64,000 bases of DNA from Eledone cirrhosa (lineage: Eukaryota), in assembly GCA_964016885.1 (NCBI GenBank), contig OZ024742.1, positions 13,702,001 through 13,766,000 on the forward strand, given 5' to 3'. Shown in pieces: positions 30,001 through 63,575 of the stretch; the stretch's first letter is position 1; each line of letters opens with the position of its first letter. The notes beneath the pieces were generated by a model, which had not been told where the DNA came from, searched no databases, and saw nothing but the letters and a program-made list of their open reading frames with translations. Both the position numbers and the translations under genes were made by a program.

Positions 30001-31113
30001 GTCAGTCTGTCACCTGTTTGACCCAGCCTCATATCTTGACTTGGTCATTCCATGACAGTATCTTGGTCAGTCTATCACCTGTTTGACCCAGCCTCATATC
30101 TTGACTTGGTCATTCCATGAGAGTATCTTGGTCAGTCTATGAAGGGTTCACCTGTTTGACTTGGTCATTCCATGAGAGTATCTTGCTCAGTTTATCACCT
30201 GTTCCACCCAGCCTCATATCTTGTCTTGGTCATTCCTTGAGAGTATCTTGGTCAGTCTATGAAGGGTTCACCTGTTTGACTTGGTCATTCCATGACAGTA
30301 TCTTGGTCAGTCTATCACCTGTTTGACCCAGCCTCATATCTTGACTTGGTCATTCCATGGGAGTATCTTGGTCAGTCTATCTCCTGTTTGACCCAGCCTT
30401 ATATCTTGACTTGGTCATTCCATGAGAGTATCTTGGTCAGTCTATGAAGGGTTCACCTGTTTGACTTGGTCATTCCATGAGAGTTTCTTGGTCAGTTTAT
30501 CACCTGTTCCACCCAGCCTCATATCTTGTCTTGGTCATTCCTTGAGAGTATCTTGGTCAGTCTATGAAGGGTTCACCTGTTTGACTTGGTCATTCCATGA
30601 CAGTATCTTGGTCAGTCTATCACCTGTTTGACCCAGCCTCATATCTTGACTTGGTCATTCCATGACAGTATCTTGGTCAGTCTGTCACCTGTTTGACCCA
30701 GCCTCATATCTTGACTTGGTCATTCCATGATAGTATCTTGTTCAGTCTATCACCTGTTCCACCCAGCCTCATATCTTGATTTGGTCATTCCTTGAGAGTA
30801 TCTTGGTCAGTCTATCACCTGTTTGACCCAGCCTCATATCTTGACTTGGTCATTCCATGACAGTATCTTGGTCAGTCTATCTCCTGTTTGACCCAGCCTT
30901 ATATCTTGACTTGGTCATTCCATGACAGTATCTTGGTCAGTCTATCTCCTGTTTGACCCAGCCTTATATCTTGACTTGGTTATTCCATGACAGTATCTTG
31001 GTCTGTCTATCACATGTTCCACCCAGCCTCATATCTTGACTTGGTCATTCCATGACAGTATCTTGGTCAGTCTATCACCTGTTTGACCCAGCCTCATATC
31101 TTGATTTGGTCAT
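1..31113. repeat. Satellite DNA array, 65-bp monomer (GTTTGACCCAGCCTCATATCTTGACTTGGTCATTCCATGACAGTATCTTGGTCAGTCTATCACCT), about 480 copies, continuing beyond the window start
   Basis: 65-bp periodicity is directly visible; monomers differ by a few recurring substitutions (e.g. GTTTG/GTTCC); twelve 55-bp variant monomers lie at 20.6-22.0 kb and 29.2-30.6 kb. Confidence 0.98.
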
Positions 31114-31320
31114 ATCTAAGATATGATATAATTATCTTTCTCTTTATCTCATTCTCCCCCCCCCCCCCCTCTCTCTCTGTATATATATATATATATATAT
31201 ATACAAACAAGCCTCATTTTAAAAAAAAATTGTTTACATCATGTAGAGCAAACATTTTTTTTTATTACTTGAATTAGGCAAAGCCGGCCATTTATCGCTC
31301 GTATACAGGAAACAGACTGG

Positions 31321-31419
31321 CCAGTCTGCTGATATGCAAATCTGGCTGATCAGAGGATCTGCTAATATGCAGATCTGGCTGATCAGCCAGTCTGCTAATA
31401 TGCAAATCAGGCCGATCAG
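31321..31419. repeat. Three tandem 33-bp units inside the inverted-repeat element
   Basis: CCAGTCTGCTGATATGCAAATCTGGCTGATCAG / AGGATCTGCTAATATGCAGATCTGGCTGATCAG / CCAGTCTGCTAATATGCAAATCAGGCCGATCAG. Confidence 0.9.
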
Positions 31420-31484
31420 TCACTGTATATTTTAGAATATAGCATATATTTTCTCTAGCTCTGACAGTTTGGCAGGTAAACAGT

Positions 31485-31534
31485 GAGCTGTACTGATGAA
31501 GGGTGATACCCAGAAACATTAGTGTCTGCAGTTC
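31485..31534 (+). ncRNA. Type I hammerhead ribozyme, predicted cleavage after GUC (C31526)
   Basis: Stem I GAGCTGTA/TGCAGTTC (8 bp, 2 GU); core CTGATGA 31493-31499; stem II GGGT-gat-ACCC after an A.A mismatch; GAAA 31513-31516; stem III ACA-ttag-TGT; GTC triplet. Confidence 0.8.
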
Positions 31535-31700
31535 TGTTCGCATGCCAACACAAGAGCAAGAATGAAGGGTTCATTCTACTGACATGGCTATACAAATGAG
31601 GCTTGTTTGTATAATTACAAACGAATCGAATATTATTATTAATATTCGAAAAACTCAGATTACATTTATTGTATTCAGCCATGTAGAGCGAAAGTTTCTC

Positions 31701-31739
<39 letters not shown>

Positions 31740-31741
31740 GT

Positions 31742-31922
31742 TCCTTCTATTGGCACAAGGCCAGCAGTTATTCAGTGCATTACTGGTACTATATTTTATC
31801 GACCCCGTAAGAATGAAAGGCAAAGTTAACCTCGGCGGGATTTGAATTCAGATTGGCAAGGGCCGTAACTATGCTGCAAAGCGTGGTGTCTGACGCTCTA
31901 CGATACTGCCAAACCCCTGCCC
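31742..31922 (-). mobile_element. tRNA-derived SINE (Octopus OR-type/CORE-like)
   Basis: ATCGACCCCGTAAGAATGAAAGGCAAAGTTAACCTCGGCGGGATTTGAATTCAG; the reverse complement gives a B-box-like GAATTCAAATCC; a homologous partial copy lies at 40986-41079. Confidence 0.75.
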
Positions 31923-32980
31923 TTATATATATAATACATACAGTATCCTCCTGTCAATGTTTTATCTATCACCCTAGGTCGCCTGCCGCTTCATTCCATT
32001 CTTTATCTCCCTACCCCCTTTATTAGTTTTCTAATTCCTCAGTAGGTACATTCCTATTGTACTTCATTTTTATATAACTGTTTGTTGTAATATTTAATAG
32101 TTGAAACTACATCACAAACTGGATTCCAAACGACAATAACTCCTCGGTTTTCCACAAAGAAGAAGAATATATTGGTTAATTTGAATTATGAGCATAGTGG
32201 GACGGAATTTAATATGTTTATTTCGCTCTTCCCATAAATTCTGCCCTTCCTGTTTTAATTCGTAATGAAGCGAAAGCCATCAGCAATGGCCTGCATTAAC
32301 AAATAGAAATACAAAATTTCACACAATATTGTGAATTGTGTGGTGTGTAGAAGTGTTGACAAGCTTTTCAGACATAACCACTTTAATTAGTGTGTCATTC
32401 TGCTACTGTTCAATGACTATTAAATCAATTCACGCCCAGCTTTGCTCAATGCATTTCATTTGCCGCGAGCTTCACATCTAAATTATGTTTATATCATATT
32501 GAACTTCGTTATTTAAAGCCGGAAATGTCGAAATCCTGACAGGATTAAAGGAAGTTATATTTAATACGAAATAATAGCTAAGCGGAAGATTCTATCAAAT
32601 TGTTGAAATCAATTTGATAAACAGGTTTCAATGTTATAAGACAAGACTTTGCTAATGGTTAATAAACGTTGAATGATGTCGTATTCTGAAATACCAATAT
32701 ATGGTTGGAACTGGTCATAAACGTTTATTCTTTGTTAAAATTCTAATTTAACGTGAAATCATTTTATCAGCAGTCATCATAAAGTAACTTGAATTCTTGT
32801 TAGAGTTTTCACTAGCTTCTACGTGTATCTTTATATTTGTAGGCACATAATTTAAAATACTTCTACTTAGATGTGTTACTGTTCAATTGACGAAATACTA
32901 AATCACAAAAGATAATTTCCATAACAAATCTTTTGATTTCACTGACAGCATCTCTCTCTCTCTCTCTCTCTGACAGCATA

Positions 32981-37121: not shown

Positions 37122-40020
37122 CTGGATGTGTGTAAAGAGTGTAGATGTGTGTGTGGCTGGATGTGTGTAAAGAGTGTAGATGTGTGTGTGGCTGGATGTG
37201 TGTAAAGAGTGTAGATGTGTGTGTGTGGCTGGATGTGTGTAAAGAGTGTAGATGTGTGTGTGGCTGGATGTGTGTATAGAGTGTAGATGTGTGTGTGGCT
37301 GGATGTGTGGAAAGAGTGTAGATGTGTGTGTGGCTGGATGTGTGTAAAGAGTGTAGATGTGTGTGTGGCAGGATGTGTGTATAGAGTGTAGATGTGTGTG
37401 TGGCAGGATGTGTGGAAAGAGTGTAGATGTGTGTGTGGCAGGATGTGTGGAAAGAGTGTAGATGTGTGTGTGGCTGGATGTGTGTAAAGAGTGTAGATGT
37501 GTGTGTGGCAGGATGTGTGGAAAGAGTGTAGATGTGTGTAAAGAGTGTAGATGTGTGTGTGGCAGGATGTGTGTATAGAGTGTAGATGTGTGTATGGCTG
37601 GATGTGTGGAAAGAGTGTAGATGTGTGTGTGGCTGGATGTGTGGAAAGAGTGTAGATGTGTGTGTGGCAGGATGTGTGTATAGAGTGTAGATGTGTGTGT
37701 GGCAGGATGTGTGGAAAGAGTGTAGATGTGTGTGTGGCAGGATGTGTGGAAAGAGTGTAGATGTGTGTGTGGCTGGATGTGTGTAAAGAGTGTAGATGTG
37801 TGTGTGGCAGGATGTGTGGAAAGAGTGTAGATGTGTGTAAAGAGTGTAGATGTGTGTGTGGCAGGATGTGTGTATAGAGTGTAGATGTGTGTGTGGCTGG
37901 ATGTGTGGAAAGAGTGTAGATGTGTGTGTGGCTGGATGTGTGGAAAGAGTGTAGATGTGTGTAAAGAGTGTAGATGTGTGTGTGGCAGGATGTGTGTATA
38001 GAGTGTAGATGTGTGTGTGGCTGGATGTGTGGAAAGAGTGTAGATGTGTGTGTGTGGCTGGATGTGTGTAAAGAGTGTAGATGTGTGTGTGGCAGGATGT
38101 GTGTATAGAGTGTAGATGTGTGTGTGGCTGGATGTGTGTATAGAGTGTAGATGTGTGTGTGTGGCTGGATGTGTGTAAAGAGTGTAGATGTATGTGTGTG
38201 GCTGGATGTGTGTAAAGAGTGTAGATGTGTGTGTGGCTGGATGTGTGTAAAGAGTGTAGATGTGTGTGTGGCAGGATGTGTGTATAGAGTGTAGATGTGT
38301 GTGTGGCAGGATGTGTGGAAAGAGTGTAGATGTGTGTGTGGCAGGATGTGTGGAAAGAGTGTAGATGTGTGTGTGGCTGGATGTGTGTAAAGAGTGTAGA
38401 TGTGTGTGTGGCAGGATGTGTGGAAAGAGTGTAGATGTGTGTAAAGAGTGTAGATGTGTGTGTGGCAGGATGTGTGTATAGAGTGTAGATGTGTGTGTGG
38501 CTGGATGTGTGGAAAGAGTGTAGATGTGTGTGTGGCTGGATGTGTGTAAAGAGTGTAGATGTGTGTGTGGCAGGATGTGTGGAAAGAGTGTAGATGTGTG
38601 TAAAGAGTGTAGATGTGTGTGTGGCAGGATGTGTGTATAGAGTGTAGATGTGTGTGTGGCTGGATGTGTGGAAAGAGTGTAGATGTGTGTGTGTGGCTGG
38701 ATGTGTGTAAAGAGTGTAGATGTGTGTGTGGCAGGATGTGTGTATAGAGTGTAGATGTGTGTGTGGCTGGATGTGTGTATAGAGTGTAGATGTGTGTGTG
38801 TGGCTGGATGTGTGTAAAGAGTGTAGATGTATGTGTGTGGCTGGATGTGTGTAAAGAGTGTAGATGTGTGTGTGGCTGGATGTGTGTAAAGAGTGTAGAT
38901 GTGTGTGTGGCAGGATGTGTGGAAAGAGTGTAGATGTGTGTAAAGAGTGTAGATGTGTGTGTGGCAGGATGTGTGTATAGAGTGTAGATGTGTGTGTGGC
39001 TGGATGTGTGGAAAGAGTGTAGATGTGTGTGTGGCTGGATGTGTGGAAAGAGTGTAGATGTGTGTGTGGCTGGATGTGTGTAAAGAGTGTAGATGTGTGT
39101 GTGGCAGGATGTGTGGAAAGAGTGTAGATGTGTGTAAAGAGTGTAGATGTGTGTGTGGCAGGATGTGTGTATAGAGTGTAGATGTGTGTGTGGCTGGATG
39201 TGTGGAAAGAGTGTAGATGTGTGTGTGGCTGGATGTGTGGAAAGAGTGTAGATGTGTGTGTGGCTGGATGTGTGTAAAGAGTGTAGATGTGTGTGTGGCT
39301 GGATGTGTGGAAAGAGTGTAGATGTGTGTGTGGCTGGATGTGTGTAAAGAGTGTAGATGTGTGTGTGGCTGGATGTGTGGAAAGAGTGTAGATGTGTGTG
39401 TGGCTGGATGTGTGGAAAGAGTGTAGATGTGTGTAAAGAGTGTAGATGTGTGTGTGGCAGGATGTGTGTATAGAGTGTAGATGTGTGTGTGGCTGGATGT
39501 GTGGAAAGAGTGTAGATGTGTGTGTGGCTGGATGTGTGGAAAGAGTGTAGATGTGTGTGTGGCTGGATGTGTGGAAAGAGTGTAGATGTGTGTGTGGCTG
39601 GATGTGTGTATAGAGTGTAGATGTGTGTGTGGCTGGATGTGTGTATAGAGTGTAGATGTGTGTGTGTGGCTGGATGTGTGTAAAGAGTGTAGATGTGTGT
39701 GTGGCTGGATGTGTGTAAAGAGTGTAGATGTGTGTGTGGCTGGATGTGTGGAAAGAGTGTAGATGTGTGTGTGGCTGGATGTGTGTAAAGAGTGTAGATG
39801 TGTGTGTGGCAGGATGTGTGGAAAGAGTGTAGATGTGTGTGTGGCAGGATGTGTGGAAAGAGTGTAGATGTGTGTGTGTGGCTGGATGTGTGTAAAGAGT
39901 GTAGATGTGTGTGTGGCTGGATGTGTGTATAGAGTGTAGATGTGTGTGTGGCTGGATGTGTGTAAAGAGTGTAGATGTGTGTGTGGCAGGATGTGTGGAA
40001 AGAGTGTAGATGTGTGTGTC
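37122..40020. repeat. Minisatellite, ~35-bp unit GGCTGGATGTGTGTAAAGAGTGTAGATGTGTGTGT, with 19-bp and 37-bp variants
   Basis: Visible periodicity; strongly G/T-biased on the + strand. Confidence 0.95.
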
Positions 40021-40420
40021 GCTGGATGTGTATGTGTGTCTGGATGTGTGTGTCCCTGACTGTGTGTGTGTGTGTCTGGATGTGTGTGTATATGTGTGTC
40101 TCTGGCTGTATGTACATGTGTGTCTCTGTCTGTGTGTCTCTCTGGCTGTGTGTATGTGTGTCTCTCTGGCTATGTATGTGTGTGTCTGACTGTGTGTATA
40201 TGTGTGTGTCTGTGTGTGTCTCTCTGGCTGTGTGTATGTGTGTCGCTGGCTGTGTATGTGTGTGTCTGACTGTGTGTATATGTGTGTGTCTGTGTGTGTC
40301 TCTCTGGCTGTGTGTATGTTTGTCTGGTTGTGTGTATGTGTGTGTCTGGCTGTGTGTACATGTGTGTGTATGTGTGTGTGTGTGTATGTCTGTCTCTCTT
40401 TGTGTGTATGTATATGACTG

Positions 40421-40825: not shown

Positions 40826-40985
40826 CCGTTAACATGTTTAACGAGTGTATTTATATCTACATGAAAGTTTTCTATTATTGTCTTTTTAAATATACACACA
40901 CAATATAAGAACGAAGAAAATTAAATTCATATAAAAAAATAACTATAAAAGATATGTATGTACTTAAATACATACATATAATTAT

Positions 40986-41079
40986 TTCTACTTTTGGCAC
41001 AAGGCCATCAATTACCCAGTGCATTACTGGTACTTTATCTTATCGACCCCGTAAGGATGAAAGACAAAGTTAACTTCGA
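40986..41079 (-). mobile_element. Truncated SINE, same family as 31742-31922
   Basis: TTGGCACAAGGCCA...CAGTGCATTACTGGTACT...ATCGACCCCGTAAGGATGAAAGACAAAGTTAAC is near-identical to the 31.75-31.83 kb segment. Confidence 0.75.
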
Positions 41080-55600: not shown

Positions 55601-58600
55601 TGTCATTTATATCATAGCTGTGACATAGGTAATATATCTGTCACTTATATCATAGCTGTGACATAGGCGATATAACTGTCACTTATATAATAGCTGTGAC
55701 ATAGGTAATATATCTGTCACTGATATCATATATGTGACATATGTAATATATCTGTCACTTATATCATAGCTGTGACATAGGTAATATATCTGTCACTTAT
55801 ATCATAGATGTGACATAGGTAATATATCTGTCACTTATATCATAGCTGTTACATAGGTAATATACCTGTCACTTATATCATAGCTGTGACATAGGTAATA
55901 TATCTGTCACTTATATCATAGTTGAGACATTGGCAATATATCTGTCACTTATATCATAGCTGTGACATAGGTAATATATCTGTCACTTATATCATAGCTG
56001 TGAGATAGGAGAGAGATCTGTCACTTATATCATAGCTGTGACATAGGTAATAGATCTGTCACTTATATCATAGTTGTGACATAGGTAATATATCTGTCAC
56101 TTATATCATAGGTGTGAGATAGGAGAGAGATCTGTCACTTATATCATAGCTGTGACATAGGTAATATATCTATCACTTATACCATAGCTCTGACATAGGT
56201 AATATATCTGTCACTTATATCACAGCTGTGACATAGGGGATATATCTGTCACTTATACCATAGCTGTGAAATTGGTAATATATCTGTCACTTATATCATA
56301 GCTGTGACATAAAAGATAGATCTGTCACTTATATCATCGCTGTGACATAGGTAATATCTCAGTCACTTATATCATAGCTGTGATATAGGGGATATATCTG
56401 TCACTTATATCATAGCTGTGACATAGGTAATATATCTGTCACTTATATCATAGCTGTGAGATAGCAGAGAGATCTGTCACTTATATCATAGCTGTGAGAT
56501 AGGTAATATATCTGTCACTTATATCATAGCTGTGACATAGGTAATAAATCTGTCACTTATATCATAGTTGTGACACAGGTAATATATCTGTCATTTATAT
56601 CATAGCTGTGACATAGGTAATATATCTGTCACTTATATCATAGCTGTGAGATAGGAGAGAGATCTGTCACTTATATCATAGCTGTGAGATAGGTAATATA
56701 TCTGTCACTAATATCATAGATGTGACATAGGTAATATATCTGTCACTTATATCATAGCTGTTACATAGGTAATATATCTGTCACTTATATCATTGCTTTG
56801 ACATAGGTAATATATCTGTCAATTATATCATAGCAGTGACATAGGTAATATATCTGTCACTTATATCATAGCTGTGACATAGGTGATATATCTGTCACTT
56901 ATATCATAGCTGTGACACAGGTAATATATCTGTCATTTATATCATAGCTGTGACATAGGTAATATATCTGTCACTTATATCATAGCTGTGACATAGGCGA
57001 TATAACTGTCACTTATATAATAGCTGTGACATAGGTAATATATCTGTCACTGATATCATATATGTGACATATGTAATATATCTGTCACTTATATCATAGC
57101 TGTGACATAGGTAATATATCTGTCACTTATATCATAGATGTGACATAGGTAATATATCTGTCACTTATATCATAGCTGTTACATAGGTAATATATCTGTC
57201 ACTTATATCATAGCTGTGACATAGGTAATATATCTGTCACTTATATCATAGTTGAGACATTGGCAATATATCTGTCACTTATATCATAGCTGTGACATAG
57301 GTAATATATCTGTCACTTATATCATAGCTGTGAGATAGGAGAGAGATCTGTCACTTATATCATAGCTGTGACATAGGTAATAGATCTGTCACTTATATCA
57401 TAGTTGTGACATAGGTAATATATCTGTCACTTATATCATAGCTGTGAGATAGGAGAGAGATCTGTCACTTATATCATAGCTGTGACATAGGTAATATATC
57501 TATCACTTATACCATAGCTCTGACATAGGTAATATATCTGTCACTTATATCTTAGCTGTGACATAGGAGATATATCTGTCACTTATATCACAGCTGTGAC
57601 ATAGGGGATATATCTGTCACTTATACCATAGCTGTGAAATTGGTAATATATCTGTCACTTATATCATAGCTGTGACATAAAAGATAGATCTGTCACTTAT
57701 ATCATCGCTGTGACATAGGTAATATCTCAGTCACTTATATCATAGCTGTGATATAGGGGATATATCTGTCACTTATATCATAGCTGTGAGATAGGTAATA
57801 TATCTGTCACTTATATCATAGCTGTGACATAGGTAATAAATCTGTCACTTATATCATAGTTGTGACACAGGTAATATATCTGTCATTTATATCATAGCTG
57901 TGACATAGGTAATATATCTGTCACTTATATCATATATGTGACATATGTAATATATCTGTCACTTATATCATAGCTGTGACATAGGTAATATATCTGTCAC
58001 TTATATCATAGCTGTGACATAGGTAATAAATCTGTCACTTATATCATAGCTGTGACATAGGCGATATAACTGTCACTTATATAATAGCTGTGACATAGGT
58101 AATATATCTGTCACTGATATCATATATGTGACATATGTAATATATCTGTCACTTATATCATAGCTGTGACATAGGTAATATATCTGTCACTTATATCATA
58201 GATGTGACATAGGTAATATATCTGTCACTTATATCATAGCTGTGACATAAAAGATAGATCTGTCACTTATATCATAGCTGTGACATAGGTAATATATCTG
58301 TCACTTATATCATAGTTGTGACATTGGCAATATATCTGTCACTTATATCATTGCTTTGACATAGGTAATATATCTGTCAATTATATCATAGCTGTGACAT
58401 AGGTAATATATCTGTCACTTATATCATAGCTGTGACATAGGTGATATATCTGTCTCTTATATCATAGCTGTGACACAGGTAATATATCTGTCATTTATAT
58501 CATAGCTGTGACATAGGTAATATATCTGTCACTTATATCATAGCTGTGACATAGGCGATATAACTGTCACTTATATAATAGCTGTGACATAGGTAATATA

Positions 58601-61600
58601 TCTGTCACTGATATCATAGCTGTGACATAGGCGATATATCTGTCACTTATATCATAGATGTGAAATAGGTAATATATCTGTCACTTATTTCATAGCTGTG
58701 ACATAAAAGATAGATCTGTCACTTATATCATAGCTGTGACATAGGTAATATATCTGTCACTTATATCATAGTTGTGACATAGGCAATATATCTGTCACTT
58801 ATATCATAGCTGTGACATAGGTAATATATCTGTCACTTATATCATATATGTGACATATGTAATATATCTGTCACTTATATCATAGCTGTGACATAGGTAA
58901 TATATCTGTCACTTATATCATAGCTGTGACATAGGGGATATATCTGTCACTTATATCATAGCTGTGACATAGGTAATATATCTGTCACTTATACCATAGC
59001 TGTGACACAGGTAATATATCTGTCACTTATATCATAGCTGTGACATAGGAGAGAGATCTGTCACTTATATCATAGCTGTGACATAGGTGATATATCTGTC
59101 ACTTATACCACAGCTGTGACATAGGGGATATATCTGTCACTTATATCACAGCTGTGACATAGGGGATATATCTGTCACTTATTTCATAGCTGTGACATAG
59201 GTAATATATCTGTCACTTATATCTCAGCTGTGACATAGGAGAGAGATCTGTCACTTATATCATAGCTGTGACATAGGTAATATATCTATCACTTATACCA
59301 TAGCTCTGACATAGGTAATATATCTGTCACTTATATCATAGCTGTGAGATAGGAGAGAGATCTGTCACTTATATCATAGCTGTGAGATAGGTAATATATC
59401 TGTCACTTATATCATAGATGTGACATAGGTAATATATCTGTCACTTATATCATAGCTGTTACATAGGTAATATATCTGTCACTTATATCATTGCTTTGAC
59501 ATAGGTAATATATCTGTCAATTATATCATAGCAGTGACATAGGTAATATATCTGTCACTTATATCATAGCTGTGACATAGGTGATATATCTGTCACTTAT
59601 ATCATAGCTGTGACACAGGTAATATATCTGTCATTTATATCATAGCTGTGACATAGGTAATATATCTGTCACTTATATCATAGCTGTGACATAGGCGATA
59701 TAACTGTCACTTATATAATAGCTGTGACATAGGTAATATATCTGTCACTGATATCATATATGTGACATATGTAATATATCTGTCACTTATATCATAGCTG
59801 TGACATAGGTAATATATCTGTCACTTATATCATAGATGTGACATAGGTAATATATCTGTCACTTATATCATAGCTGTTACATAGGTAATATACCTGTCAC
59901 TTATATCATAGCTGTGACATAGGTAATATATCTGTCACTTATATCATAGTTGAGACATTGGCAATATATCTGTCACTTATATCATAGCTGTGACATAGGT
60001 AATATATCTGTCACTTATATCATAGCTGTGAGATAGGAGAGAGATCTGTCACTTATATCATAGCTGTGACATAGGTAATAGATCTGTCACTTATATCATA
60101 GTTGTGACATAGGTAATATATCTGTCACTTATATCATAGGTGTGAGATAGGAGAGAGATCTGTCACTTATATCATAGCTGTGACATAGGTAATATATCTA
60201 TCACTTATACCATAGCTCTGACATAGGTAATATATCTGTCACTTATATCACAGCTGTGACATAGGGGATATATCTGTCACTTATACCATAGCTGTGAAAT
60301 TGGTAATATATCTGTCACTTATATCATAGCTGTGACATAAAAGATAGATCTGTCACTTATATCATCGCTGTGACATAGGTAATATCTCAGTCACTTATAT
60401 CATAGCTGTGATATAGGGGATATATCTGTCACTTATATCATAGCTGTGACATAGGTAATATATCTGTCACTTATATCATAGCTGTGAGATAGCAGAGAGA
60501 TCTGTCACTTATATCATAGCTGTGAGATAGGTAATATATCTGTCACTTATATCATAGCTGTGACATAGGTAATAAATCTGTCACTTATATCATAGTTGTG
60601 ACACAGGTAATATATCTGTCATTTATATCATAGCTGTGACATAGGTAATATATCTGTCACTTATATCATAGCTGTGAGATAGGAGAGAGATCTGTCACTT
60701 ATATCATAGCTGTGAGATAGGTAATATATCTGTCACTAATATCATAGATGTGACATAGGTAATATATCTGTCACTTATATCATAGCTGTTACATAGGTAA
60801 TATATCTGTCACTTATATCATTGCTTTGACATAGGTAATATATCTGTCAATTATATCATAGCAGTGACATAGGTAATATATCTGTCACTTATATCATAGC
60901 TGTGACATAGGTGATATATCTGTCACTTATATCATAGCTGTGACACAGGTAATATATCTGTCATTTATATCATAGCTGTGACATAGGTAATATATCTGTC
61001 ACTTATATCATAGCTGTGACATAGGCGATATAACTGTCACTTATATAATAGCTGTGACATAGGTAATATATCTGTCACTGATATCATATATGTGACATAT
61101 GTAATATATCTGTCACTTATATCATAGCTGTGACATAGGTAATATATCTGTCACTTATATCATAGATGTGACATAGGTAATATATCTGTCACTTATATCA
61201 TAGCTGTTACATAGGTAATATATCTGTCACTTATATCATAGCTGTGACATAGGTAATATATCTGTCACTTATATCATAGTTGAGACATTGGCAATATATC
61301 TGTCACTTATATCATAGCTGTGACATAGGTAATATATCTGTCACTTATATCATAGCTGTGAGATAGGAGAGAGATCTGTCACTTATATCATAGCTGTGAC
61401 ATAGGTAATAGATCTGTCACTTATATCATAGTTGTGACATAGGTAATATATCTGTCACTTATATCATAGCTGTGAGATAGGAGAGAGATCTGTCACTTAT
61501 ATCATAGCTGTGACATAGGTAATATATCTATCACTTATACCATAGCTCTGACATAGGTAATATATCTGTCACTTATATCTTAGCTGTGACATAGGAGATA

Positions 61601-63405
61601 TATCTGTCACTTATATCACAGCTGTGACATAGGGGATATATCTGTCACTTATACCATAGCTGTGAAATTGGTAATATATCTGTCACTTATATCATAGCTG
61701 TGACATAAAAGATAGATCTGTCACTTATATCATCGCTGTGACATAGGTAATATCTCAGTCACTTATATCATAGCTGTGATATAGGGGATATATCTGTCAC
61801 TTATATCATAGCTGTGAGATAGGTAATATATCTGTCACTTATATCATAGCTGTGACATAGGTAATAAATCTGTCACTTATATCATAGTTGTGACACAGGT
61901 AATATATCTGTCATTTATATCATAGCTGTGACATAGGTAATATATCTGTCACTTATATCATATATGTGACATATGTAATATATCTGTCACTTATATCATA
62001 GCTGTGACATAGGTAATATATCTGTCACTTATATCATAGCTGTGACATAGGTAATAAATCTGTCACTTATATCATAGCTGTGACATAGGCGATATAACTG
62101 TCACTTATATAATAGCTGTGACATAGGTAATATATCTGTCACTGATATCATATATGTGACATATGTAATATATCTGTCACTTATATCATAGCTGTGACAT
62201 AGGTAATATATCTGTCACTTATATCATAGATGTGACATAGGTAATATATCTGTCACTTATATCATAGCTGTGACATAAAAGATAGATCTGTCACTTATAT
62301 CATAGCTGTGACATAGGTAATATATCTGTCACTTATATCATAGTTGTGACATTGGCAATATATCTGTCACTTATATCATTGCTTTGACATAGGTAATATA
62401 TCTGTCAATTATATCATAGCTGTGACATAGGTAATATATCTGTCACTTATATCATAGCTGTGACATAGGTGATATATCTGTCTCTTATATCATAGCTGTG
62501 ACACAGGTAATATATCTGTCATTTATATCATAGCTGTGACATAGGTAATATATCTGTCACTTATATCATAGCTGTGACATAGGCGATATAACTGTCACTT
62601 ATATAATAGCTGTGACATAGGTAATATATCTGTCACTGATATCATAGCTGTGACATAGGCGATATATCTGTCACTTATATCATAGATGTGAAATAGGTAA
62701 TATATCTGTCACTTATTTCATAGCTGTGACATAAAAGATAGATCTGTCACTTATATCATAGCTGTGACATAGGTAATATATCTGTCACTTATATCATAGT
62801 TGTGACATAGGCAATATATCTGTCACTTATATCATAGCTGTGACATAGGTAATATATCTGTCACTTATATCATATATGTGACATATGTAATATATCTGTC
62901 ACTTATATCATAGCTGTGACATAGGTAATATATCTGTCACTTATATCATAGCTGTGACATAGGGGATATATCTGTCACTTATATCATAGCTGTGACATAG
63001 GTAATATATCTGTCACTTATACCATAGCTGTGACACAGGTAATATATCTGTCACTTATATCATAGCTGTGACATAGGAGAGAGATCTGTCACTTATATCA
63101 TAGCTGTGACATAGGTGATATATCTGTCACTTATACCACAGCTGTGACATAGGGGATATATCTGTCACTTATATCACAGCTGTGACATAGGGGATATATC
63201 TGTCACTTATTTCATAGCTGTGACATAGGTAATATATCTGTCACTTATATCTCAGCTGTGACATAGGAGAGAGATCTGTCACTTATACCATAGCTGTGAC
63301 ATAGAAGATATATCTGTCACTTATATCATAGCTGTGACATAGGAGATATATCTGTCACATCATAACTGTGACATAGGTAATACCTTTGTCTCTTATATCA
63401 TAACT
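52665..63405. repeat. Satellite DNA array, 38-bp monomer (TCTGTCACTTATATCATAGCTGTGACATAGGTAATATA), about 280 copies, both ends inside the window
   Basis: 38-bp periodicity is directly visible. Confidence 0.98.
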
Positions 63406-63575
63406 GTTGTTGTTGCTGCTGTTGATTTTGTTGCTGTTGTTACTGCTGTTGTTGCTGATTTCGCTGTTGTTGCTGTTATTGCTATTGCTATTCTTGTTGT
63501 ATTTGTTGTTACTGTTGTGGCTGCTGTTGCTGATGATGATGTTGTTGCTGATGATGCTGGAGTTGTTGTTGTTGC
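63406..63575. repeat. (TTG/CTG/ATG)n trinucleotide low-complexity tract
   Basis: Directly visible; source of the poly-L ORF. Confidence 0.9.

What the first reader, a model, noticed from the sequence alone, without database searches (positions are those of the whole stretch)
31204..31609. Element with terminal inverted repeats and TA flanks that carries a canonical GUC hammerhead
It combines DNA-transposon-like hallmarks (16-bp exact TIRs, TA on each side, internal 33-bp triplication) with a retroelement hallmark (a hammerhead). Stem I extends further through AACAG/CTGTT, TTGGCA/TGCCAA (31469-31474 / 31543-31548) and GCTCT/AGAGC, and is followed by a perfect hairpin AGAATGAA-ggg-TTCATTCT (31559-31577). 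It lies ~90 bp past the end of the 65-bp satellite, so it could cleave read-through satellite transcripts (speculative).
Basis: partly seen in the sequence, partly recalled or inferred. Interest (0 to 1): 0.75.

Follow-up and report, generated by a model that had tools for sequence, protein, structure and literature searches.

The report
Hammerhead retrozyme copy mimicking a MITE
This is one copy of an abundant ~440-base repeat that carries a predicted self-cutting hammerhead RNA and was likely pasted into a TA microsatellite by a Penelope-type retrotransposon enzyme; its apparent DNA-transposon ends are a short inverted piece of this one copy, so it is a new member of a known class rather than a hybrid element.

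Summary
The 16-bp inverted repeat, TA flanks, 33-bp triplication, type I hammerhead core and hairpin are all real and beyond chance. The DNA-transposon reading fails. In public runs the family continues through the right 'TIR': all 7 listed contig pieces that reach it run past it. The right 'TA' is CA in most copies and is one side of a compensatory pair in a conserved hairpin. Other copies join head-to-tail with a 430–442-bp period, and many end at 31669 in (AT)n. This copy ends about 35 bp later, matching the Penelope 'tail'. The element is 31204–31706, between two (TA)n tracts: one 440-bp unit plus a short repeat, preceded by a 36-bp inverted arm. Best reading: a non-LTR retrozyme, a non-autonomous Penelope-dependent element. 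The lone hammerhead has an A·A mismatch closing stem II and is predicted to fold into a core-blocking helix, so cutting of satellite read-through RNA is unlikely. Cleavage, expression and the partner enzyme are untested.

The parts
31180..31203 (.). (TA)12 tract, left half of the inferred insertion target; supplies the 'TA flank'
   Evidence: sequence
31204..31219 (-). Distal piece of the inverted left arm (the left 'TIR'): reverse complement of 31594-31609; its outer end falls at a TATA of this copy (31610-31613)
   Evidence: no cover at 31204-31220 in any of four runs
31220..31239 (-). Proximal piece of the left arm: inverted copy of the unit start 31241-31264 with a 5-nt gap; head-to-head centre at 31239/31240
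   Evidence: alignment; hairpin
31240..31679 (+). One ~440-bp non-coding unit of a high-copy family, 38% GC, strongly structured (circular fold z about -9.2 against 60 shuffles)
   Evidence: no Pfam hit for the 3 overlapping ORFs
31320..31419 (+). 33-bp sub-repeat, three copies; copy number varies in the family (joints skipping 33 bp or going back about 32)
31458..31557 (+). Type I hammerhead domain with long interrupted stem I; core 31493-31526; predicted cleavage after C31526
   Evidence: the 4 stem-I pairs that carry listed family variants all stay paired
31559..31577 (+). Hairpin behind the hammerhead; loop variable, stem kept in the family
31582..31684 (+). Predicted 3' multibranch domain closed by 31582-31589/31677-31684, holding hairpins 31605-31622 and 31626-31649; the right 'TIR' end and 'TA' are the 5' strand of the 31605-31622 hairpin
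   Evidence: pair probabilities 0.998-0.999 without the left arm; C-G in family versus T-A here at 31610/31617
31670..31706 (+). About 35-bp 'tail' beyond the commonest listed family end (31669); 31680-31706 is an imperfect direct repeat of the unit start 31240-31266
   Evidence: loose ends and joints; family D6
31707..31736 (.). (TA)15 tract, right half of the inferred insertion target

Best explanation
The stretch 31204-31706 is one copy of a high-copy, head-to-tail ~440-bp non-coding repeat with a type I hammerhead motif, most likely a non-LTR retrozyme that a Penelope-like element's enzyme likely reverse-transcribed into a (TA)n tract, and its 'TIRs' are a short inverted arm not seen in the other copies examined. 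Shown: the unit, its tandem joints, the (AT)n-bound family ends, the conserved stems, and the family running through the right 'TIR'. Inferred: tandem arrays are transcribed; two hammerheads pair through the self-complementary stem III loop and cut out monomers, which may circularise. A PLE RT/GIY-YIG protein would nick both strands of (TA)n and copy the RNA from two internal start points, giving a long forward arm (here 467 bp, more than one unit, read through an uncut hammerhead site) and an inverted short arm joined head-to-head at 31239/31240. The short arm here is made of two pieces and ends at a TATA rather than at the usual end. It was likely either primed at that TATA or shortened later by a deletion using it. 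This solo copy is probably a dead-end insert whose hammerhead is predicted to be inactive alone.
For: Family runs past the right 'TIR': 7 of 26 listed contig pieces reach 31609 and all 7 go beyond, 6 by 31 letters or more (X1 and X2 are one sample, X6 another organism). 31610 is C in 94% (X1) and 79% (X6) of summed contig depth, and its partner 31617 is G in 98% and 83%, a compensatory pair. Head-to-tail joints from 31688-31704 back to 31258-31297 occur in X1, X2 and X6, period 429-442 (5 of 15 listed joints, 5 of 12 listed inserts). Loose ends behind 31669 read (AT)n in 70 (X1) and 74 (X2) contigs, the largest listed for those runs, and 27 more behind 31674. This copy ends 34-37 bp further on, the size of the PLE tail (30-40 bp; bioRxiv 2021.04.23.441226 passages; PMC11167929). 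Inverted 5'-truncated arms and (TA)n targets are described PLE traits. Three listed opposite-strand joints in other copies are not explained by internal inverted repeats. Listed variants hit 9 stem pairs in 31467-31649 and all 9 stay paired. The stem III segment forms a 10-bp self-duplex, -8.8 kcal/mol, like dimer-type metazoan hammerheads (PMC7229834; PMC4209133).
Against: No whole genome was available, so no other full copy could be read end to end. The tables show only the best-supported rows (40 of 192 differences, 15 of 209 joints, 20 of 1153 loose ends). Joints were taken at 80% likeness and have low depth (13-40 in table 5, about 200 for the main one). A second fixed end near 31703-31706 is not among the listed loose ends; it rests on this copy and on 62/83 contigs that run over the stretch's end. 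The left arm's outer end (31609-31613) is not at the common end 31669, which the simple two-start model predicts. The two terminal repeats differ at about 6 of 27 positions, more than the roughly 3% by which this copy differs from run X1's majority. That argues against one RNA circle templating both ends and favours a multimeric template or later decay. No autonomous partner was found: 0 of 9 short motifs occur in the PMC8557442 supplement. Even the double hammerhead (-57.2) is not the lowest two-strand fold (-66.0 kcal/mol).
Confidence: 0.78

Rival explanations
1. A MITE (Tc1/mariner-type, TA target duplication) that captured a hammerhead and moves by cut-and-paste.
For: Exact 16-bp IR with TA on each side, beyond chance; short and non-coding.
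Against: Family contigs run through the right 'TIR'; the right TA is CA in most copies and lies inside a hairpin; no listed loose end at 31609-31613; what precedes the unit in other copies is its own 3' end. The left TA is the end of a (TA)12 tract.
Confidence: 0.04
2. The unit is the 3' pseudo-LTR of an autonomous, ORF-bearing Penelope-like element (for example Hydra or Neptune clade), and this is a heavily 5'-truncated insertion of it.
For: Hammerhead about 150-180 nt from the 3' end, (TA)n target, tail and inverted arm are all PLE traits. Some X6 contigs carry 290-610 unaligned letters ahead of the matched part (records 17, 21, 22), which were not readable.
Against: Joints from the 3' end straight back to the unit start with only 3-34 letters between, in two organisms, leave no room for an ORF in those copies. 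No Pfam hit in the 3 ORFs overlapping the element or the 2 nearest ORFs downstream.
Confidence: 0.12
3. The element is a retrozyme copy, but the left arm arose after insertion, by local fold-back or template-switch repair at the (TA)n junction, not during retrotransposition.
For: The arm is two short pieces, one a gapped snap-back of the adjacent 24 bp; its outer end is not at a common family end. The satellite end 90 bp away also finishes in a perfect fold-back (31109-31127).
Against: At the position matching 31593 the left arm has the family letter while the right arm has a private change, so it was copied before that change or from another template. Opposite-strand joints occur in other copies.
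Confidence: 0.15
4. The hammerhead was kept here to cut read-through transcripts of the 65-bp satellite.
For: It lies on the + strand 413 nt behind the last satellite unit.
Against: The family is high-copy and (TA)n-bound, so adjacency needs no function. The copy has a single hammerhead predicted to be blocked (core-loop III helix, pair probability 0.998; active fold about 2e-6), and this copy pairs worse than the family majority at three stem I positions.
Confidence: 0.03

Closest known systems
Metazoan non-LTR retrozymes (coral, mussel, axolotl; Cervera and de la Pena 2020, PMC7229834: passages and Discussion read; bioRxiv 10.64898/2026.07.22.740005: part 1 of 5 and passages read)
   Same: Short non-coding head-to-tail unit, GC under 45%, one type I hammerhead per unit, weak self-complementary helix III, mismatch at the base of helix II (U·U in axolotl HHR_Amex2, A·A here), solo monomer copies, proposed PLE mobilisation.
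   Different: Unit about 440 bp, longer than the 220-350 bp described; internal 33-bp sub-repeat; hammerhead predicted to be self-blocked, which that paper reports for plant retrozymes and only some mussel circles. This copy is a monomer with an inverted arm. RNA, cleavage and circles are not shown. Neither paper names an octopus or cephalopod family in its main text (0 hits for 'octopus'; 0 for 'cephalopod').
Pseudo-LTR hammerheads and insertion structure of Penelope-like elements (PMC4209133 parts 1-2 of 4; Craig et al. 2021 passages and supplement part 2 of 59; PMC11167929 parts 1-2 of 4)
   Same: (TA)n target, inverted 5'-truncated arm framing the insertion, 30-40-bp tail on one end, type I hammerhead near the 3' end with an unpaired or mismatched base at the foot of stem II.
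   Different: No ORF; short tandem unit; much longer stem I than the minimal PLE motifs; the inverted arm stops about 56-60 bp short of the common end; no sequence match to the listed Hydra, Naiad or Chlamys entries.
Tc1/mariner-type MITEs (definition recalled, not from a call)
   Same: Short, non-coding, exact IR at apparent ends, TA on both sides in this one copy.
   Different: IR not at the family's ends, TA not conserved, tandem units, (AT)n-bound 3' ends.

Membership tests
Tc1/mariner-type MITE | TIRs mark both ends of most family copies | tested here: not met
   7 of 7 listed pieces reaching 31609 run past it; unit start is preceded by the unit's 3' end in other copies
Tc1/mariner-type MITE | TA target-site duplication | tested here: not met
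   31610 is C in 94% (X1) and 79% (X6) of depth and pairs with 31617 in a hairpin; left TA belongs to (TA)12
Tc1/mariner-type MITE | Autonomous transposase element with the same TIRs | not testable with these tools
   no genome held; no transposase family among 17 window ORFs scanned
Non-LTR retrozyme | Type I hammerhead core in the unit | tested here: met
   descriptor hit, 0 of 2000 shuffles; no core position among the 40 of 192 variant rows shown; Rfam models do not detect it
Non-LTR retrozyme | Short head-to-tail tandem units | tested here: met
   joints 31688-31704 back to 31258-31297 in runs of two organisms; arrays themselves not seen end to end
Non-LTR retrozyme | No protein-coding capacity, GC under 45% | tested here: met
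   GC 0.38; no Pfam hit in 3 of 3 overlapping ORFs
Non-LTR retrozyme | Transcribed, self-cleaving, forming circular RNA | not testable with these tools
   no RNA run listed; folding predicts a blocked monomer
Penelope-like element insertion | 30-40-bp tail between two end points | tested here: inconclusive
   common end 31669, this copy ends 31703-31706; second end not shown as a fixed family end
Penelope-like element insertion | Inverted 5'-truncated arm | tested here: met
   31204-31239; opposite-strand joints in other copies
Penelope-like element insertion | Insertion into (TA)n or AT-rich DNA | tested here: met
   (TA)12 and (TA)15 flank this copy; (AT)n loose ends in 70 and 74 contigs
Autonomous Penelope-like element | RT plus GIY-YIG ORF | tested here: not met
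   none in this copy or among 17 ORFs scanned; other copies not readable

The most novel reading that the evidence does not exclude
PLE enzymes copying this retrozyme may prime the second strand wherever a short TAT/TATA in the RNA can pair with the nicked (TA)n target: all four ends seen (31613, 31669, 31674, 31706) fall on TA-like letters. That would make perfect MITE mimics (short exact TIRs plus TA flanks) straight from a retroelement RNA. In addition, the family's hammerhead may be kept off by a built-in 7-bp helix between its core and loop III that only a second copy opens. This would be a route by which TIR-bounded non-autonomous elements arise from ribozyme RNAs, and a homology-primed mode that differs from the homology-free start reported in vitro for Poseidon (PMC11167929).
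Probability: 0.15. Interest if true: 0.6.

Novelty: new member of a known kind. Interest (0 to 1): 0.3.

Why it matters
It removes an apparent class I/class II hybrid: Penelope-type insertions into (TA)n can look exactly like TA-flanked MITEs in a single copy, which can mislead repeat annotation. It adds a further hammerhead retrozyme family, shared by at least two organisms in the runs laid, with covarying 3' hairpins next to the copying start. Such a family is a usable substrate for testing how PLE enzymes mobilise retrozymes, a step proposed but not shown (PMC7229834 Discussion).

Tried and rejected
Whole genome: none held. Rfam: no hit at gathering score in the window; 16 weak matches at E up to 10 in 31150-32000, none a hammerhead family. 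Pattern scans for other copies found 0 loci in metagenome contigs and viral contigs. No RNA holder listed; this says nothing about expression. No cover of 31204-31220 in any run and none of 31221-31237 in X1, X2, X6: by itself only a blank, and bases 31120-31215 were skipped as repeat; I rely on joints and bridging contigs instead. Summed contig depth rises toward 31669, but the tool says it is no copy number, so it is not used as evidence. Read starts and ends in RAD run X10 (31541/31544, 31272, 31613/31616) sit on GCATGC and AATT sites (restriction sites by recall) and were rejected as library artefacts; the 31613 ends there are not element ends. The 41-bp X7 match to 31223-31263 is low-complexity and was ignored. 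Three of six opposite-strand joints (31355/31412, 31382/31469, 31473/31527) have higher local inverted-repeat scores, may come from internal self-complementarity, and were not counted. My first register for the 31582 stem was off by one and was corrected. Nine short motifs were absent from the PMC8557442 supplement. Earlier-finding look-ups by sequence, near and relatives were empty. Literature: 'hammerhead ribozyme + MITE + terminal inverted repeat' gave 4 papers and 'retrozyme + octopus' 3 (2 listed); none by listing describes such an element (listings only). 'twin priming + Penelope + inverted + microhomology' gave 1 unrelated paper. Supplements of the 2026 bioRxiv preprint were not seen and could list related families.

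Full report
Setting. The window is animal-type, repeat-rich DNA: a 65-bp satellite fills 6-31113 and microsatellites and further arrays follow. It looks cephalopod-like (my recall; earlier notes call this genome octopus-like). No assembly was available, so family evidence comes from public runs laid on the stretch.

Observation. The IR 31204-31219/31594-31609 is exact, 20 bp with the flanking TATA; 0 of 1000 shuffles reach 16 bp. The 33-bp triplication lies at 31320-31419. The hammerhead has all core letters in type I order with a 7-bp inner stem I, and 0 of 2000 shuffles match my descriptor. 31455-31580 folds at z -3.2 and 31200-31710 at z -9.4. It is not fully canonical: A·A closes stem II, stem III is three pairs, and Rfam does not see it.

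The boundaries are wrong. The right 'TIR' is internal. Of 26 contig pieces listed (23,783 more not shown), 7 reach 31609 and all 7 continue, to 31638-31691; 6 do so by at least 31 letters. They come from two organisms (X1 and X2 are one sample; X6 is another label). The 'TA' after the right arm is CA in 94% of X1 and 79% of X6 summed depth. Its partner 31617 is G in 98% and 83%, so a C-G pair in the family is a T-A pair here, inside the hairpin 31605-31622. The variants are not phased by the tool, but at those shares they must co-occur. The left TA is simply the end of (TA)12. A second tract, (TA)15, begins at 31707, and the unit start 31240-31266 recurs imperfectly at 31680-31706 (D6).

What the family looks like. 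Five of 15 listed joints and 5 of 12 listed inserts go from 31688-31704 back to 31258-31297, implying a head-to-tail period of 429-442 bp, in X1, X2 and X6. The main one has depth 199.5 and 215.7; the others 13-40. Likeness was set to 80%, which the tool flags as less reliable for joints. Among 20 listed loose ends (1133 not shown), the largest for X1 and X2 lie behind 31669 and read (AT)n (70 and 74 contigs, agreement about 0.6); 27 more lie behind 31674. None is listed at 31609-31613. In X6 the sequence ahead of 31290 is a U-rich linker like the unit's own, not the left arm (38 contigs). Of 22 listed variant rows in 31467-31649, 12 fall on 9 stem pairs and all 9 stay paired; 10 fall in loops or linkers. 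The script was given 19 of the 22; the three left out are unpaired by my reading. None of the 40 rows shown, of 192, is a hammerhead core position. This copy differs from the X1 majority at 13 listed positions in 31264-31669, about 3%; X1 may be another individual or species.

The left arm. Read on the minus strand, 31204-31239 is the unit start (31241-31264, 5-nt gap) followed by 31593-31609 and then (TA)n. So the insertion is head-to-head about 31239/31240: a 36-bp inverted arm and a 467-bp forward arm. Craig et al. describe exactly this for PLEs: an inverted 5'-truncated copy that frames the insertion with inverted repeats, a 30-40-bp tail on one end, and (TA)n targets (passages; supplement table). 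Frangieh et al. show the tail is the stretch between two internal RT start sites and that the enzyme cuts and extends both strands (parts 1-2). Here the forward arm ends 34-37 bp past the common end. Three opposite-strand joints in other copies (31257/31534, 31269/31514, 31290/31511) have no internal inverted repeat to explain them. What does not fit: the arm stops at 31609-31613, not 31669. Either it was primed at this copy's TATA, or 56-60 bp were deleted through that TATA, or the arm is a later repair product. I cannot separate these.

The ribozyme. Nearest-neighbour folding, which ignores Mg2+ and tertiary contacts, puts the active monomer fold 6.6 kcal/mol above a fold in which the core (31492-31498) pairs with 31517-31523: probability 0.998 for that helix, about 2e-6 for the active fold. 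The stem III segment is self-complementary (10-bp duplex, -8.8 kcal/mol). A double hammerhead (-57.2) is within 1 kcal/mol of two blocked monomers (-58.2), though an inactive dimer is lower still (-66.0). This agrees with dimer-dependent metazoan hammerheads and makes cutting by this lone copy doubtful. Nothing links it to the satellite except distance.

Mechanism. Shown: unit, tandem joints, (AT)n ends, kept stems, copy-level inverted arm. Inferred: transcription of arrays, dimer cleavage, possible circles, and PLE-driven two-strand copying into (TA)n. The forward arm is longer than one unit and crosses the cleavage site intact, so its template was an uncut multimer or a circle. The roughly 6 differences in 27 bp between its two ends favour a multimer or later decay over a single circle. 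The partner was not found: the window's only RT-related remains are a LINE-type endonuclease and zf-RVT at 44595-46024 (2 of 17 ORFs above cut-off), and 9 motifs are absent from the Craig supplement.

Comparison and verdict. It works like, and meets the testable criteria of, a metazoan non-LTR retrozyme (PMC7229834; bioRxiv 10.64898/2026.07.22.740005, which argues these derive from PLEs). It fails both testable MITE criteria. My searches found no paper on an octopus retrozyme or a hammerhead-bearing MITE (listings only). Earlier notes of this scan already describe two-armed retrozyme families of 310, 466 and about 490 bp in this and other genomes. They shaped my wording but are not evidence, and none matched this family by sequence. 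New member of a known kind; interest 0.3.

Noticed in passing
window 50466-50508 (+): A second, unrelated minimal type I hammerhead: stem I GTAGTC/GATTAC, core CTGATGA, U·U at the foot of a 4-bp stem II, 2-bp stem III, between (TA)-rich tracts. It resembles the Hydra-clade PLE motifs tabulated in the PMC8557442 supplement.
   Followed up: partly
window 31737-31925 and 40960-41048: Two copies (84% alike) of another, far more abundant repeat that starts right after (TA)n tracts; it drew most of the records laid. Possibly the family that earlier notes link to Naiad elements and a scrambled hammerhead; not checked.
   Followed up: no
window 31109-31127: The 65-bp satellite array ends in a perfect 8-bp fold-back (TCATATCT/AGATATGA), an inverted piece of its own unit.
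   Followed up: no
window 44595-46024 (+): Broken LINE-type remnant: Exo_endo_phos (E 3e-7) and zf-RVT (E 1.5e-7) in separate frames.
   Followed up: no
window 30100-30600: Near its end the 65-bp satellite holds several shorter variant units in which ATGAAGGGTTCACC replaces part of the monomer; ATGAAGGGTTCA also occurs in the element's hairpin at 31562-31573. May be chance.
   Followed up: no
window 37122-40031 and 52669-63407: Two further tandem arrays: a 35-bp strongly G-skewed array (80 copies) and a 38-bp array (283 copies).
   Followed up: no
window 31320-31419: The 33-bp sub-repeat is built from two self-complementary halves and folds into a long rod; family members have two, three or four copies.
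   Followed up: partly
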